DNA from: a virus | Virus record (IMG/VR): IMGVR_UViG_3300032323_001800 | Span: 64,001 to 128,000 of that record | Length of the DNA stretch: 64,000 bases | Reading direction: 5' to 3' (one strand) | Part shown: positions 29,320 through 34,871 of the stretch, one piece after another | Layout of the letters: every line of letters starts with the position of its first letter | Numbering within the stretch: the first letter of the stretch is position 1 | Translations under genes and position numbers: made by a program | The notes under the pieces: model-generated | The model's input: the letters and a program-made list of their open reading frames with translations, nothing else | Database searches by the model: none | What the model was told of the DNA's origin: nothing

Positions 29320-29757
29320 TTAAATCGTAGGAATATTTCTACTGTCAAAATCTAAAATCATGCTATCAACCACGTTAAATGGAAGATACATCAGTTCAAC
29401 TTGTATTCGTATGCCGTGCTCTGTAGCTTCTATTACTACGTTATTAACCTTTGTTCTAGGATCATTATTAACGATTGCTTCAACATCATCGGCAACAACT
29501 TTTTTATTTGATTCACTCATTGGTTCAAAAATCATATCCCAAATTGCTGTTCCAAACTCTGGATTTTCTACTTTCTGTCCTCGTTTGATGTGGAAATGAT
29601 TAAGCAAATCTTGTTTGATTAAATCAATATCATACTGTTTAAACCCAGCTTTAGCATTTCTAGAATTAAATCCTTTGTATGTGAATGGCTTAGGATTAAT
29701 GTTTCCTATACTAGCTTGATTTGTAGCAACTGTTTTTTGATTATATAATTTTGCCAT
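29320..29757 (-). CDS. gp25: baseplate wedge subunit gp25 (GPW/gp25 family)
   Basis: DLIKQDLLNHFHIKRGQKVENPEFGTAIWDMIFEP...NDPR. Confidence 0.9.
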   Translation of the reverse strand: MAKLYNQKTVATNQASIGNINPKPFTYKGFNSRNAKAGFKQYDIDLIKQDLLNHFHIKRGQKVENPEFGTAIWDMIFEPMSESNKKVVADDVEAIVNNDPRTKVNNVVIEATEHGIRIQVELMYLPFNVVDSMILDFDSRNIPTI

Positions 29758-29758
29758 A

Positions 29759-31384
29759 TTATTCTCCTGTTACATCTCGGTCTGTTTTTTCTGGTGTAAC
29801 TTTTGTAGGGTCTAGATGTTCATGATCTGCCCACGGTTCGTGCATTGGTATTCTTTTCATTATAGATAATACAGTTTCTTGGCTCTTGTACTGTGTGTCT
29901 TTCCATGTCAATGTATCATCAATAACTGCTAGATTAAATGTTGTTAGTGCTGTCGGCTTAACTGATGCTGTTGCGACTTCTGCTGCTGATGCTGGATCGC
30001 AGTTCATTTCGATCCGTGCTGCTTCTTCGATATGTTTTCCTGCCGATTTGATATTAGTGTTTGTTCCTGCCTGTAATCTTAAATCTACAGATGTTTTTAA
30101 ACTAATTGTTCCAGTTGAAGAAATTTTAATTTTTCCATCGACTGTAGAATTACTATCGCCCATCACTTTAGAAAAAACATTAGTATCTACAGTTTGATGA
30201 TAGTTTCCTTTAATATATTCTTTTACATCCTTAGTAACAATGTTAATTAAATCAGTAGCTACTTCTGTCTGTACTCTACCTTCAAGAGTTTTAATATTAA
30301 TATTTCTTTTAGCTTCCATGTTGATATCTCGATCAGCACGAATGTTTAAATCATTTTTTGTATGAATTGAAATGCTATCTTCAGCAAAAATATCAACCTT
30401 TCCATTACTGGTTAATTCAATCCAAGTGGTTCCTTTAGCGTTACCAATGTAGATTAAATCTTCTGAGTTGTGTAATAAGATTTGATGGCCGGTGCGAGTT
30501 CTAATACGAAAGTATTCACTAGCTACTACTGTTGGGTCGCCTTTTTCATTGTTATCTAGATCAGCATATAACATCGGTCCTTCACTAGCTGGAGTTTTTC
30601 GTTGGAATCTTGAGTCACCGTCATCCATAACAAATGTGGTTCCGCCTAATCGACTTACCGGAACTTGGGTTTCGGACTTAGATTCTTTCTTACCGATATA
30701 GGCTTTTTTACCTAAGGGATCAATCGGACCGGGCGTACTGATTCCAAATACACTTCCGGGTAAATTTCTTCGCGGAGTAGAGGTTGATGGGCCCCTGATG
30801 TCATCCATTAACAGTCCCTGTTTTAGGTATGTTTCGGCAACTGGATGCACTGGTTTTTTTGCTGCGCTGATATTTGCACCAACTGCTACGTTAGCCGCTC
30901 GATTAACTTCTGCAACCGGTAATCCAACATTGGGCTCGTATTTTTGTCTATCTGCCTGAGCATAGTCAATGTTTTTACTCGACGCTATCGCAGGAACCAT
31001 GTGGTTCGCAAATCTGTCAGGAATACATGCGATCCAGTATCCTTCAGCCGGGTCACCGTCAATGAATACAACTAATACAGTAACACCGATATCTGGAGGA
31101 ACAAACCACATACCATACGATTTTTGTGTGTCGTTGAACGCTTGATCGTTGCCTTTATTTTCTCCCTGAAAAGAAAAATTTGTAACTCCGTAAAATGGAG
31201 TAGCGCATCTTACACTAAATGTTTGATTATCATTACCGAACTGATTACCGTTATCTTTTAATAAGGTAACTTCTAGTCCTCCCATGAAACTAGGATCTAG
31301 ATGGCCAACTACCTTAGCTTTGTACGGACCTCCGTTACCTAAGATAGTTTTTGAATTATACTGTTTTCTGATTTCTTGTGCCAT
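29759..31384 (-). CDS. gp5: central spike gp5/VgrG-like protein (OB fold plus beta-helix, no lysozyme domain recognised)
   Basis: YGMWFVPPDIGVTVLVVFIDGDPAEGYWIACI OB-fold motif; RIRTRTGHQILLHNSEDLIYI; 8-residue-type beta-helix repeats. Confidence 0.8.
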   Translation of the reverse strand: MAQEIRKQYNSKTILGNGGPYKAKVVGHLDPSFMGGLEVTLLKDNGNQFGNDNQTFSVRCATPFYGVTNFSFQGENKGNDQAFNDTQKSYGMWFVPPDIGVTVLVVFIDGDPAEGYWIACIPDRFANHMVPAIASSKNIDYAQADRQKYEPNVGLPVAEVNRAANVAVGANISAAKKPVHPVAETYLKQGLLMDDIRGPSTSTPRRNLPGSVFGISTPGPIDPLGKKAYIGKKESKSETQVPVSRLGGTTFVMDDGDSRFQRKTPASEGPMLYADLDNNEKGDPTVVASEYFRIRTRTGHQILLHNSEDLIYIGNAKGTTWIELTSNGKVDIFAEDSISIHTKNDLNIRADRDINMEAKRNINIKTLEGRVQTEVATDLINIVTKDVKEYIKGNYHQTVDTNVFSKVMGDSNSTVDGKIKISSTGTISLKTSVDLRLQAGTNTNIKSAGKHIEEAARIEMNCDPASAAEVATASVKPTALTTFNLAVIDDTLTWKDTQYKSQETVLSIMKRIPMHEPWADHEHLDPTKVTPEKTDRDVTGE

Positions 31385-31392
31385 GTTTGTCC

Positions 31393-33474
31393 TTAAGCGT
31401 ATGAGTACCCTTCGTTAGCATCCCCAGTCAATGGATTAAAGTTTGAGTTAGCAGGAACTTCTCCAATTTCTTTTGCTGGTTTAGAATCATCGTTATTACC
31501 AGCGACTGCGGTATCAAAGTCTTTAGGTTGTCCTTTCATACGAACAGCTTTAATAGTCTGTTTAAACACAGCATCTTTGGCCATTTCTGTTTCTACTTCT
31601 GTTACCATGTAGATTCCACTAAACGGACTTTCTTTTTCTTTAAAATTATATAGACCCTCATCGCCAGATTCATCGATATCTAAAGGTGTTTGAAAAGAAA
31701 CATAAACATAAACTTGATTAGTTTCATATGTCATTGCACCATCAATATTAACTGACGGATTATCTGTTGAGGGAGGTCCGTAGTAGTTGCCCACACCACT
31801 ATCGACCAAATAGTAAGGATCTCCCATAATGTCAAACTCTACTGATATCAAATCAGCATTACTGGCTAAGACTGCGTTTTGAAAATCTCTTGCTACCGCG
31901 GCCGCAACATCATCATTGTTTGCGCCACCCGGTTTATAAGCCGCCACTGAACCATCTTTGGCAAATCTAGGAGTTGCTGTTTTCGATAGCAACTGTCTGG
32001 CCGAAGGTAGTGTCGCTACCTTAACTTGATTAGAATCAGCTGCTGCTTGTTGAGAGGCATCGGTACTGGCTTTTTCTTCTTTAAGGCCGGGACTAATTGC
32101 GTTATAAAATGTGGTATCAAATCTTAAATTAAATTTTAAAAGATCGTTATTTGCACCAGTATAGATATAATTGTATTTCTTTGCAATTATTTTTTGTAAC
32201 TCACCATACCCACTACCGGCTGCGTTAGGTTTTAGAAAAATACTCGAATGGACTTTGTACGGATAGACTTCATATATTACAATTTTTTGATAGTCACCTC
32301 GAGATACATCGTATTCTTTTAATTGAATTTTGACATTGATTTTAAACCAGTCAATTAATCCTTTTCCGTCTGCCTTTTCTATAGCTTTTTTTCCGTACTC
32401 ACTAGCTAAGATAACTTCTGTAATGATATCTACAATAGTTTGTCCTTGGCCAAACTGAAATGCTCTAGACTTAGGATCAATAGTTATTTGTGATGATCTA
32501 ACCCGACCGTCTGGAGATACTACCTCTGATTCTTTTCCAAATGTGTAATTGCCGCCCCTTGTCATGTCAAATGCCATACTAGTTTCTGCTATAGGGTTAT
32601 CACCTTTTGATTTTCCATCTAGTGTTGGAAATGTAATTACAAATGTATCTGCTAATGCCTGTTGAGCGTTTGCTGCCATTCTTTTACTTTCCTTTGTTAA
32701 TGCCACTGACAATGAATTTTCTCCTGTGGAAAGTAACTCTTTAATTGTGCCGCCCTGTATTCTAATATCTGTCCAAACACTATTAATGATAGTGGTAAAT
32801 CCCTTATGATTGTGGGGAGATAACTCCATTTTATATCTGCTACCGCCCTCATCAACATCAAAATCAATACCTATTAGTGTTACGCCGAATTGTCTAGTTA
32901 GATTTTTTACTACAAAGCTATTTCCATTTTCATCAAACCCTAAAAAGTCTATCTGTATAAGATAAGGAGCATTATTCAGATAGTTAATATAGCCTGCATT
33001 TAAAGCAGCTACCTGCAGAGATTGTAGAAATAATCCCATACTATAAGGTTCATAAATTTCTAGAGTAAATCCAATAGCATTTGTATTTCCTAATTCTTTT
33101 CTTGGAGAAATAAGATTGGTCATCTTAAAGCTTTCTACAAAATATTCGGGTCGGAGACCCGGCTCTGCTAATACTCTTTCTTTATCATATCTGCCAGCAG
33201 ATGAAAATATAACATTTTTAAGAGATGCTGGATTATTTCTTAGCGTGATAGGGTTGTTATACTGCTCAGGATCTAATGCTGCCATCGTGAATAATGTAGT
33301 ATAAGACGCAAATTTTTCTAAAGGATTAGGAACAAGATTTGGAAAATTATAATCTCTAATTCTATTTGCGGTGACCACAACTGTATCAAGCCGCTGATTC
33401 CCATTCACATCAACAGTTGCTTTTTTTACTTCTCCTTCCACATTAACTGATGCGGAACCAACATTAACTGGCAT
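31393..33474 (-). CDS. baseplate hub protein (gp27/late-control-D-like, 693 aa)
   Basis: Lies between gp53 and gp5; C-terminal DIMGDPYY...FSGIYMVTEVE...FKQTIKAVR hub pattern. Confidence 0.65.
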   Translation of the reverse strand: MPVNVGSASVNVEGEVKKATVDVNGNQRLDTVVVTANRIRDYNFPNLVPNPLEKFASYTTLFTMAALDPEQYNNPITLRNNPASLKNVIFSSAGRYDKERVLAEPGLRPEYFVESFKMTNLISPRKELGNTNAIGFTLEIYEPYSMGLFLQSLQVAALNAGYINYLNNAPYLIQIDFLGFDENGNSFVVKNLTRQFGVTLIGIDFDVDEGGSRYKMELSPHNHKGFTTIINSVWTDIRIQGGTIKELLSTGENSLSVALTKESKRMAANAQQALADTFVITFPTLDGKSKGDNPIAETSMAFDMTRGGNYTFGKESEVVSPDGRVRSSQITIDPKSRAFQFGQGQTIVDIITEVILASEYGKKAIEKADGKGLIDWFKINVKIQLKEYDVSRGDYQKIVIYEVYPYKVHSSIFLKPNAAGSGYGELQKIIAKKYNYIYTGANNDLLKFNLRFDTTFYNAISPGLKEEKASTDASQQAAADSNQVKVATLPSARQLLSKTATPRFAKDGSVAAYKPGGANNDDVAAAVARDFQNAVLASNADLISVEFDIMGDPYYLVDSGVGNYYGPPSTDNPSVNIDGAMTYETNQVYVYVSFQTPLDIDESGDEGLYNFKEKESPFSGIYMVTEVETEMAKDAVFKQTIKAVRMKGQPKDFDTAVAGNNDDSKPAKEIGEVPANSNFNPLTGDANEGYSYA

Positions 33475-33475
33475 A

Positions 33476-33775
33476 TTAATTTCCTAGATATTTGTTAAGG
33501 TTGCTTTGTTTTGGTATTTTAATTTTTTTACCTGGTTCAAAATCGTATATAGGATCTTTTAGTACATCCATATTTCGTTGAACAAATACCCACCATAATC
33601 TGGATGTTCCATACAGGTCGTATGCCAGTAGATCGGGGCGATGTCTATATTGAGGTTCAATTGTATATACAAAATCGTCAGCATCGGACGGGACCGGTCT
33701 AATTTCCAGCATTTCGAGATATAAACTATTCGACGCTGTGTTATACCAAGGACTAGTTGAACTATACTTTGCCAT
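33476..33775 (-). CDS. gp53: baseplate wedge LysM-like protein (gp53-like)
   Basis: HRPDLLAYDLYGTSRLWWVF...FEPGKKIKIP. Confidence 0.8.
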   Translation of the reverse strand: MAKYSSTSPWYNTASNSLYLEMLEIRPVPSDADDFVYTIEPQYRHRPDLLAYDLYGTSRLWWVFVQRNMDVLKDPIYDFEPGKKIKIPKQSNLNKYLGN

Positions 33776-33776
33776 A

Positions 33777-34871
33777 TTACATCATTCCTTTTGATAGAGC
33801 GCCACCTTGGGCAAAATCTTGGAGGCTAAACGATCTTATTTTTTCTCTGCTATAGACAGGAGCCACTGTTACTGATATTGTGCTAACTGCAGGAACCCAT
33901 TGATTAGAATTATTAATAGATACATTAATATAATTTACATCTTCTGGCATTTCAACAGAATACGATTTAACCACAACCGGAACGTTATTAAAAATAAAAC
34001 TACCGTAACCGTTTAATCTACAAATAACCGGCGGGTTTCCTTGAAGGCCACCGCTGCCTGTTCCATAAAACATTTTAGTTGAAGTTTTTAAGAAGTGGGT
34101 GGCAGCAATCCAGTATCTAGCATCATCTTCAGTCTGCACTGAAAATTCTCCAGATATTTGAACATCATCGACTGCGCTGTTTTTATATGCTTGGAACGGA
34201 AAGTTTGAATGCACTGGGTCAATTGTAGAATAGTTTGCTTTGTATGCTATAGTCACTCTAGGAACAAATGGCCAGGCTACCCCGGATGTTTTTTTAAGCG
34301 GATCAAAAATAGTCGAAGAGGCTTCTAAAAACGGTGACGATATTCTTACACGCCAGTCTCGATCGTTAGTTGCTAACACTCTTGTTGAAGCAGTTTGCTG
34401 CATTAACTGACCGCCCTGAGGCAATGCCTTTGCTCTAGCGGCACTAACTGCATCATTGGCTTTACCGGCTGCTGCCGTGATTCCAGCTTGTGCTTCAGCG
34501 ATACCTGCTCCAATTTTTTTAGCAGCTCCTATTAATCCTAATCCTAATCCAATAGCACCTAACACTTTATCAATTCCTGAGGTGCCGCCTCTACCACCGG
34601 ATACTGCGCCCGATCCAGAAGATCCAGTAGCAGCGGTTGTTGCTACTGTATTAACACCAGTAGAATTATTATTTTGGTTGGGGGCTCCGTTAGCTATATA
34701 ATTAATGTTTGATCCCGGACCGCCGGATAAATTAGCAATTTTTTGATCTAGTTCAAATTGAGTAGTACCACCATAAGGTATATTTCCCCCTCCGTTAGCT
34801 TGGGAGATTGCATCAACAGTGGCCCACGAAGTACCGACATATTGAAAGTCTGGATTTGTTGGTAATGGCAT
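33777..34871 (-). CDS. baseplate tail-tube initiator/cap (gp48/gp54-like) with Gly-rich N-terminal extension
   Basis: VAWPFVP...SGEFSVQT...GNPPVICRLNGYG.FIFNNVPVVVKSYSVEMP tube-fold motif. Confidence 0.7.
   Translation of the reverse strand: MPLPTNPDFQYVGTSWATVDAISQANGGGNIPYGGTTQFELDQKIANLSGGPGSNINYIANGAPNQNNNSTGVNTVATTAATGSSGSGAVSGGRGGTSGIDKVLGAIGLGLGLIGAAKKIGAGIAEAQAGITAAAGKANDAVSAARAKALPQGGQLMQQTASTRVLATNDRDWRVRISSPFLEASSTIFDPLKKTSGVAWPFVPRVTIAYKANYSTIDPVHSNFPFQAYKNSAVDDVQISGEFSVQTEDDARYWIAATHFLKTSTKMFYGTGSGGLQGNPPVICRLNGYGSFIFNNVPVVVKSYSVEMPEDVNYINVSINNSNQWVPAVSTISVTVAPVYSREKIRSFSLQDFAQGGALSKGMM

What the first reader, a model, noticed from the sequence alone, without database searches (positions are those of the whole stretch)
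33361..33390. TonB-box mimic at the N-terminus of the baseplate hub protein
Seen: the hub ORF starts 1 nt after the gp53 stop, which supports the N-terminal extension, and residues ~29-37 read DTVVVTANR. Established: the E. coli BtuB TonB box region is DTLVVTANR (8/9 identical), and group B colicins use their own TonB boxes for import. The T4 gp27/gp5 hub enters the periplasm on sheath contraction, and TonB acts in the periplasm. Inference: the phage may engage host TonB directly through a virion protein, to pull the tube toward the inner membrane or to energise entry. I know of no described example.
Basis: partly seen in the sequence, partly recalled or inferred. Interest (0 to 1): 0.75.

Follow-up and report, generated by a model that had tools for sequence, protein, structure and literature searches.

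The report
TonB-box motif on a phage hub
A giant freshwater phage carries, on a floppy arm of the protein that caps its tail tube, a near-perfect copy of the short peptide that bacterial outer-membrane transporters use to dock the energy-transducing protein TonB, so the phage may borrow host energy to get its DNA in; binding has not been tested.

Summary
Observation confirmed. The 693-aa ORF (31393-33474, minus strand) reads L29-DTVVVTANR-38. It matches the BtuB Ton box peptide PDTLVVTANR at 8 of 9 positions.

The protein is a gp27/VgrG-type baseplate hub by fold. The hub core starts near residue 50. Residues 1-41 are predicted disordered.

I built a profile from 70 real TonB boxes of Burkholderiales transporters. 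The hub motif scores 23.0 bits against it, where real boxes have a median of 13.7. That gives P = 2.7e-9 per position. It is the top 10-mer in the phage proteome by about 10 bits.

Relatives down to 46% identity keep a box at the same spot, in both natural flavours (LD[TE]VVVTA[ND]R and LPxVTV[TYI][AG]). All six VVVTAN codons differ synonymously from a relative at 69% identity. Three close lineages have lost the box, so it is an accessory motif, not a structural necessity.

LDEVVVTA is also 7-10 times more frequent in viral contigs than scrambled controls. It lies mostly in linkers of non-transporter phage proteins.

TonB binding, the host, and how the arm sits in the virion are all untested. 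I found no published description of this. The scan noted a similar motif before on other DNA (e1-5708076, e1-5708092), and those notes are unchecked.

Verdict: this is a real, selected TonB-box mimic at the sequence level. I put the odds at about 50% that it engages host TonB during entry.

The parts
33361..33390 (-). TonB-box-like motif L29-DTVVVTANR-38
   Evidence: Read directly. It scores 23.0 bits on a profile of 70 real TonB boxes, P 2.65e-9 per position. It is 8/9 identical to the BtuB Ton box peptide.
33325..33474 (-). N-terminal extension (residues 1-50) ahead of the canonical hub fold. Residues 1-41 are predicted disordered.
   Evidence: AF2 pLDDT is below 50 for residues 1-41. Structural alignments to hub proteins start at model residues 44-63, and T4 gp27 residue 4 aligns to model residue 54.
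31393..33474 (-). gp27/VgrG-type baseplate hub protein, 693 aa
   Evidence: Foldseek and VIA matches to P1, Mu gp44, T4 gp27 (1k28_D, Z 10.7), VgrG, and PVC/AFP hubs. It matches phrog_11190, 'virion structural protein'. The PA5oct homologue is marked as detected in virions by ESI-MS/MS.
33476..33775 (-). gp53-like baseplate wedge protein, 99 aa, immediately upstream
   Evidence: PF11246 at E 2.3e-4 (21.3 bits, cut-off 21) and phrog_7145 at E 4e-29.
29759..31384 (-). gp5-like spike (OB domain plus beta-helix, no lysozyme domain detected), immediately downstream
   Evidence: phrog_13211 'baseplate hub subunit and tail lysozyme' at E 3e-39. Weak Pfam hits to Phage_base_V and Gp5_trimer_C.
29320..29757 (-). 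gp25-like baseplate protein, 145 aa
   Evidence: The ORF is. The syntenic 145-aa gene of relatives carries PF04965 GPW_gp25 (weak).

Best explanation
The hub protein forms the gp27-like cup that caps the tail tube and holds the spike. By analogy with other hubs it is a trimer. Each copy carries a flexible N-terminal arm of about 40-50 residues with a functional TonB box (L29-R38). On sheath contraction the spike-hub complex is pushed through the outer membrane into the periplasm. There the arms bind the C-terminal domain of host TonB by beta-strand addition. Transporter Ton boxes and the disordered N-termini of group B colicins, pyocins and pesticin bind TonB the same way. The proton-motive-force-driven ExbB-ExbD-TonB machine then pulls on the hub. 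The most likely effect is to remove the hub-spike 'cork' from the tube end, much as TonB pulls on a transporter's plug. An alternative effect is to tether the tube tip to the inner membrane. Either way, genome release would be coupled to an energised host. Shown here: the motif, its TonB-box quality, purifying selection on it, its position on a predicted disordered extension, and the hub fold. Inferred: exposure in the periplasm, TonB binding, pulling, and the consequence.
For: 1. The motif scores 23.0 bits on a profile built from 70 authentic TonB boxes lying just upstream of Plug domains. Real boxes, left out one at a time, score a median of 13.7 bits (IQR 7.6-18). P is 2.65e-9 per position. 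The next best 10-mer in this beta-rich phage proteome scores 13.3 bits.
2. Relatives keep a box 18-23 residues before the conserved NPLE core while the rest of the arm diverges. Examples are LDEVVVTANR at 25.3 bits, LAEVVVTANR at 23.5 (69% identity), LPAVTVTASR at 23.3 (52% identity), and LPAVTVYG, LPTVTVIG, LPPVTVYG and LPPVNVTAG at 12.8-14.8 (46-51% identity). These are the two flavours seen in real transporters, such as LDEVVVTATR, LPEVIVTARR, LPPVYVTA and LPPVQVEG.
3. Against the gene of P0007, all six VVVTAN codons differ only synonymously.
4. The box is lost or degenerate in P0004, P0005 and P0006 (69-83% identity) and absent from PA5oct's hub. It is therefore not needed to build a baseplate.
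5. Residues 1-41 are predicted disordered, and the hub fold begins near residue 50.
6. In T4 the gp5-gp27 complex is released after contraction.
7. Independent support comes from viral contigs. The DNA pattern for LDEVVVTA hits 65 IMG/VR loci, against 6 and 9 for the reversed and shuffled controls. There are 23 carrier families against 4 and 6, and only about 3 of the 23 are transporters. Carriers include a crAss cargo-domain protein, a tail protein, a tail tube protein and a PG-binding virion protein.
8. In the family of the PG-binding virion protein, 16 of 120 homologues have a site of at least 16 bits, where 0.3 are expected. The sites lie in variable linkers.
Against: There is no binding or genetic evidence of any kind. 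The host is unknown; only distant hub homologues are binned with Polynucleobacter and Verrucomicrobiales MAGs. Other clades of the hub family carry a weak, non-hydrophobic motif at the same aligned spot (VPKVTKTATK and LPDTKTTAGS, about 8.6 bits). The box may therefore have evolved from an older strand that has some other role. Whether the arm is accessible, buried or removed in the virion is unknown. Only three copies per virion are expected. Loss of the box in close relatives shows that any TonB step is dispensable. T4 hub release needs no TonB.
Confidence: 0.5

Rival explanations
1. The motif is a structural strand. It is a beta-strand of the hub's N-terminal arm that zips onto another virion protein (wedge, tube initiator, tape measure or spike) during assembly. 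Its likeness to a TonB box is convergence between two strand-addition motifs.
For: The N-terminal arm carries several conserved short motifs across the whole family (G-x-A-x-V-T-T-G-L, K-A-T-D-x-L-x-N-G). Distant clades have a weak motif at the same aligned position (VPKVTKTATK, LPDTKTTAGS) at the same distance from the core.
Against: Generic strand propensity does not explain a 23-25 bit match that includes the flanking L, D/P, A and R. It also does not explain drift that stays inside the two natural TonB-box flavours. Close relatives with the same baseplate genes have lost the motif (P0004, P0005, P0006). The other beta-rich virion proteins of this phage reach only 13.3 bits. The segment is predicted disordered.
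Confidence: 0.25
2. The motif binds another host partner. It is a selected linear motif that docks onto a different periplasmic or envelope protein with an exposed sheet edge. Candidates are a TonB paralogue of other function, a TolA-like domain, a chaperone, or a decoy TonB-C-terminal-domain lipoprotein. The outcome would be something other than force transduction.
For: The selection and disorder evidence is the same as for the main explanation. Many bacteria have several TonB-like proteins (general knowledge). Earlier scan notes describe prophage lipoproteins made only of a TonB C-terminal domain (unchecked).
Against: The only known readers of this exact consensus are TonB-family C-terminal domains. 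No alternative partner is suggested by any result here.
Confidence: 0.12
3. The match is chance: a fortuitous 9-10 residue resemblance with no function.
For: Across a scan of billions of residues, a few sites of at least 23 bits are expected somewhere. At P 2.65e-9 per position that is roughly 13 per 5e9 positions (my estimate).
Against: About 1.5e-4 such sites are expected in this proteome. The motif is retained with synonymous codon turnover. TonB-box quality persists in homologues at 46-52% identity whose arms are otherwise rewritten.
Confidence: 0.03

Closest known systems
Ton box of TonB-dependent transporters (E. coli BtuB, PDTLVVTANR)
   Same: The sequence is 8/9 identical. It lies near the N-terminus in a flexible segment ahead of the folded domain, and it scores like the best authentic boxes.
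   Different: There is no signal peptide, Plug domain or beta-barrel. The carrier is a cytoplasmically made virion hub protein.
Group B colicins, S-type pyocins and pesticin (TonB boxes in disordered N-terminal translocation domains)
   Same: An exogenous protein carries its own TonB box on a disordered N-terminal arm in order to use the host TonB system. This is established knowledge; reviews PMC11658791 and PMC12927319 and paper PMC3390615 were listed.
   Different: Bacteriocins thread through a transporter and deliver a toxin domain. Here the carrier would reach the periplasm by mechanical puncture, and the presumed cargo is the phage genome.
Filamentous phage g3p with TolA/TolQR
   Same: A virion protein directly engages a proton-motive-force-linked trans-envelope system of the host during entry (PMC10424213, listed).
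   Different: It uses the Tol system rather than the Ton system, folded domains rather than a short linear motif, and a non-tailed phage.
T4 gp27 / Mu gp44 / VgrG baseplate hub
   Same: The fold matches (Z 10-13). The gene order is gp53-hub-gp5-gp25.
   Different: This hub has an extra 50-residue N-terminal arm carrying the box, and large insertions (693 aa against 391 aa).
TonB-dependent phages T1 and phi80
   Same: The infection step depends on TonB and proton-motive force (PMC11658791).
   Different: There the dependence is attributed to the receptor FhuA. No phage-borne TonB box is described in the papers I could search.

Membership tests
TonB box (Ton box) motif of TonB-dependent transporters | PROSITE-type pattern [DENF]-[ST]-[LIVMF]-[LIVSTEQ]-V-x-[AGP]-[STANEQPK] within roughly the first 10-115 residues (pattern recalled from memory) | tested here: met
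   DTVVVTAN at residues 30-37 matches. The pattern alone is weak: 6 matches in about 68,000 aa of ORFs.
TonB box (Ton box) motif of TonB-dependent transporters | Scores within the range of authentic boxes on a profile built from real transporters | tested here: met
   The score is 23.0 bits, against a median of 13.7 and a maximum of 26.4 for 70 real boxes. P is 2.65e-9 per position.
TonB box (Ton box) motif of TonB-dependent transporters | Lies in an extended, flexible segment N-terminal to the folded domain | tested here: met
   pLDDT is below 50 for residues 1-41, and the hub fold starts near residue 50. This is a prediction only.
TonB box (Ton box) motif of TonB-dependent transporters | Binds the TonB C-terminal domain by beta-strand addition | not testable with these tools
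   This needs a binding assay with the host's TonB. No usable computational answer was obtained (see Tried and rejected).
TonB-dependent transporter (protein family) | Signal peptide, Plug domain and 22-strand barrel after the box | tested here: not met
   There is no Pfam or NCBIfam transporter hit. The fold is a gp27-type hub.
Group B colicin / pyocin / pesticin-type TonB-box translocation arm | TonB box on a disordered N-terminal arm of a protein that enters from outside | tested here: met
   The box is at residues 29-38 of a predicted disordered arm. Hub release into the envelope is known for T4; for this phage it is inferred.
Group B colicin / pyocin / pesticin-type TonB-box translocation arm | Transporter-binding receptor domain and a cytotoxic domain | tested here: not met
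   Only the hub fold is detected.
gp27 / VgrG / Mu gp44 baseplate hub | Hub fold (two tube-like barrels plus insertion domains) | tested here: met
   Foldseek probability 1.0. VIA Z is 12.9 to the P1 hub, 11.2 to Mu gp44, and 10.7 to T4 gp27 over model residues 54-666.
gp27 / VgrG / Mu gp44 baseplate hub | Baseplate gene neighbourhood | tested here: met
   gp53-like upstream, gp5-like and gp25-like downstream. PA5oct has the same order.
gp27 / VgrG / Mu gp44 baseplate hub | Present in virions as a trimer bound to the spike | not tested
   The only evidence is the 22%-identical PA5oct homologue, annotated as detected by ESI-MS/MS.

The most novel reading that the evidence does not exclude
Carrying a TonB box on a disordered arm or linker of a protein that enters the periplasm is a widespread and so far unrecognised phage strategy. 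It would occur in hubs, tail proteins, cargo or ejection proteins and virion-associated cell-wall hydrolases of phages infecting Gram-negative bacteria. The phage would hook the host ExbB-ExbD-TonB motor, so that proton-motive force uncorks the tail or pulls penetration proteins and the membrane into place. This would give a molecular reason why DNA entry of many phages needs an energised cell. It would also explain why prophages encode stand-alone TonB C-terminal-domain decoys.
Probability: 0.35. Interest if true: 0.9.

Novelty: new variant of a known kind. Interest (0 to 1): 0.76.

Why it matters
How tailed phages cross the periplasm and why DNA entry often needs an energised membrane are old open questions. 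A virion protein that carries its own TonB box would be the tailed-phage counterpart of colicin and pyocin piracy of the Ton system, and of filamentous-phage use of Tol. It would name a concrete host factor (TonB-ExbBD) acting after puncture, and predict a new class of phage-resistance mutations and decoys. It would also make the question testable with a ten-residue peptide. The same motif recurs in unrelated phage proteins in metagenomes, which suggests this is not a one-off.

Tried and rejected
1. Complex prediction of hub residues 1-60 with E. coli TonB residues 150-239 returned 'no answer': score 0.17, under the mark, and controls were not run. It counts neither for nor against binding.
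2. HMM and sequence searches with the 50-residue arm alone found nothing meaningful (NCBIfam, PDB sequences). This is expected for a 10-residue motif.
3. No TonB_C domain is encoded in the 188-kb phage record, which is 53% complete.
4. Host identification failed. There are no tRNAs. The only hints are two distant hub homologues binned with Polynucleobacter and Verrucomicrobiales MAGs and lake metagenome sources.
5. The IMG/VR search for close relatives returned only homologues of 44% identity or less, without the box. Close relatives came from the protein database instead.
6. The PA5oct hub has a short arm without a box.
7. The crAss001 genome from 1 to 74 kb, including its cargo genes, has no site of at least 11 bits. 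The motif is therefore not general among crAss-like phages, although one crAss cargo-domain protein in IMG/VR has it.
8. No cultured-phage homologue was found for two metagenomic carrier proteins.
9. Literature searches for a phage-borne TonB box found none. The library lacks most subscription journals.
10. One genome in the transporter survey (G028) is unpublished.

Full report
**What is there.** The window lies in a 187,929-bp IMG/VR virus record with 37% GC, estimated 53% complete. The ORF at 31393..33474 on the minus strand encodes 693 aa. It starts one base after the stop codon of a 99-aa gp53-like wedge gene. A 541-aa gp5-like spike gene and a 145-aa gp25-like gene follow it. Residues 29-38 read LDTVVVTANR, encoded at 33361-33390.

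**What the protein is.** Pfam finds nothing, and PHROGs calls it a virion structural protein. An AlphaFold2 model built from 65 homologues has mean pLDDT 66.7, with the core at 70-90. Foldseek matches it with probability 1.0 to baseplate hubs. VIA-align gives Z 12.9 to the phage P1 hub, 11.2 to Mu gp44, and 10.7 to T4 gp27 (model residues 54-666 against gp27 residues 4-369), with further matches to VgrG and PVC/AFP hubs. All alignments begin at model residues 44-63, and residues 1-41 have pLDDT below 50. The protein is therefore a gp27-type hub with an extra, probably disordered, N-terminal arm of about 50 residues, and the motif lies on that arm. Pseudomonas jumbo phage PA5oct has the same gene order. 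Its homologue (22% identity) is annotated as found in virions by mass spectrometry, but it has a short arm without the motif.

**Is the resemblance more than chance?**
- I collected real TonB boxes instead of relying on memory. Plug-domain matches were found in 31 genomes of the order that contains a Polynucleobacter MAG.
- The 45 residues upstream of each Plug domain were read for 70 transporters. One locus from an unpublished genome was excluded.
- A 10-column profile was refined on these sequences. Its consensus is L-[DP]-E-V-V-V-T-A-T-R, with a second flavour L-P-x-V-x-V-x-G.
- Left out one at a time, real boxes score a median of 13.7 bits (IQR 7.6-18, maximum 26.4).
- The hub motif scores 23.0 bits. 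The exact tail probability is 2.65e-9 per position, which gives about 1.5e-4 expected in the 57,189 positions of this phage's proteome.
- The next best site in this beta-rich proteome scores 13.3 bits, about what chance predicts.

**Conservation.**
- Of 757 homologues, the 120 best were read.
- Within the 90% cluster the motif is LD[TE]VVVTA[ND]R (20.5-25.3 bits), with one LDLAAVTANR variant.
- P0007 (69% identity) has LAEVVVTANR (23.5 bits).
- P0008 (52% identity) has LPAVTVTASR (23.3 bits).
- P0009-P0012 (46-51% identity) have LPAVTVYG, LPTVTVIG, LPPVTVYG and LPPVNVTAG (12.8-14.8 bits).
- The motif always lies 18-23 residues before the conserved FPN-x-V-x-NPLE start of the core, while the rest of the arm is largely rewritten.
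- These variants mirror the two flavours of authentic boxes.
- Between the window and the gene of P0007, all six VVVTAN codons differ only at synonymous sites. This shows purifying selection on the peptide.
- P0004 and P0005 (82-83% identity) have a different arm without a box. P0006 (69% identity) has a degenerate EEVVKADKK. All keep the same neighbouring baseplate genes.
- The box is therefore selected where it is present but dispensable for building a hub. That fits a host-interaction motif better than an assembly strand.
- One caveat: more distant clades carry a weak, lysine-containing motif at the same aligned position (VPKVTKTATK and LPDTKTTAGS, about 8.6 bits). The box may have evolved from an older strand of unknown role.

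**An independent line of evidence.**
- I asked whether other phage proteins carry the commonest real box. The degenerate DNA pattern for L-D-E-V-V-V-T-A hits 65 IMG/VR loci. The reversed peptide hits 6 and a shuffled peptide hits 9.
- Fifty-seven of the 65 hits lie in frame in open frames of at least 100 aa. They fall into 23 families, against 4 and 6 for the controls. Only about three of the 23 families are transporters.
- Carriers include a 1266-aa protein with a crAss cargo-protein domain, a 1374-aa tail protein, a tail tube protein with the box at residue 27, and a 1450-aa virion protein with a peptidoglycan-binding domain.
- The motif typically sits in Pro/Gly/charged linkers, for example ...TQHLDEVVVTAPKVEAG... 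and ...LQQLDEVVVTAPRRRQP....
- Homologues of the 1450-aa protein form a modular family with LysM, YkuD, SLT and PG-binding domains. Sixteen of 120 have a site of at least 16 bits, where 0.3 are expected.
- Those sites occur in about 13 different contexts, in both flavours, and in variable linkers between shuffled conserved modules.
- The motif is not universal. The structural and cargo region of crAss001 has none.

**Mechanism.**
- In T4 the gp5.4-gp5-gp27 complex is released from the tube after contraction, and the tape measure then engages the inner membrane (bioRxiv 10.64898/2026.03.06.709160).
- By analogy, this hub reaches the periplasm, where TonB's C-terminal domain operates.
- The most economical reading is that the arm binds TonB as a transporter Ton box or a colicin arm does. 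ExbBD-driven pulling then acts on the hub, either uncorking the tube or tethering it to the inner membrane.
- This step is inference. No tool here could test binding. The one complex-prediction job gave no verdict and is listed only under things tried.

**Rivals.** The rivals are a virion-internal structural strand (0.25), another envelope partner (0.12) and chance (0.03). I put the TonB reading at 0.5.

**Known or new?** TonB-box piracy by bacteriocins, and Tol piracy by filamentous phage, are established. T1 and phi80 depend on TonB through their receptor FhuA. Eight literature searches found no description of a TonB box on a tailed-phage virion protein. The library is incomplete, so this is not proof of novelty.

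Earlier first-reader notes of this scan flagged TonB-box-like peptides in a hub/M15-peptidase protein of another genome (e1-5708076, e1-5708092). They also flagged prophage lipoproteins made only of a TonB C-terminal domain (for example e1-463370). I did not test any of these. They fit the picture of a wider phage-TonB interplay.

I class the finding as a new variant of a known kind. It has high interest because a ten-residue peptide makes it directly testable.

Noticed in passing
IMG/VR loci L112-L176 (e.g. L113:527-5701:-, L115:2159-8941:+, L120:9329-13450:-, L168:4160-7957:+): The octapeptide LDEVVVTA is 7-10 times more frequent in viral contigs than reversed or shuffled controls. It lies mostly in disordered-looking linkers of large non-transporter phage proteins, including a crAss cargo-domain protein, a tail protein and proteins of unknown function up to 2261 aa.
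   Followed up: partly
L160:3171-7520:+ and proteins P0136-P0255: This is a modular family of 840-2416 aa proteins from viral contigs with LysM, YkuD, SLT and PG-binding domains. TonB-box-like sites (LDEV.V and LPEV.V flavours) recur in variable linkers between shuffled modules: 16 of 120 have a site of at least 16 bits against 0.3 expected. No homologue was found in cultured phages.
   Followed up: partly
L141:3497-4438:-: A 314-aa phage tail tube protein (PF23849, phrog_45) has LDEVVVTARR (24.9 bits) at residues 27-36 of its N-terminal arm.
   Followed up: no
L121:4229-5101:+, L123:730-1584:+: Small proteins (285-291 aa) on viral contigs have a signal peptide directly followed by LDEVVVTAK and no Plug domain match. 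They may be mini outer-membrane proteins or secreted TonB binders. They were found on seven contigs.
   Followed up: no
window 33349-33474 (-) and alignment A1, N-terminal columns: The hub family's N-terminal arms (20 to about 250 residues) share other short conserved motifs of unknown role: G-x-A-x-V-[TI]-T-G-L, K-A-T-D-x-L-x-N-G and K-K-P-D-G-T. In the window the first appears as VGSASVNVEG.
   Followed up: no
window 33777-34871 (-): A 364-aa virion structural protein (phrog_12050) upstream of gp53 has a Gly/Ala-rich hydrophobic stretch (…VLGAIGLGLGLIGAAKKIGAGIAEAQAG…). It may be membrane-active.
   Followed up: no
window 29759-31384 (-): The gp5-like spike shows the OB domain and beta-helix but no lysozyme domain in Pfam or PHROGs.
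   Followed up: no
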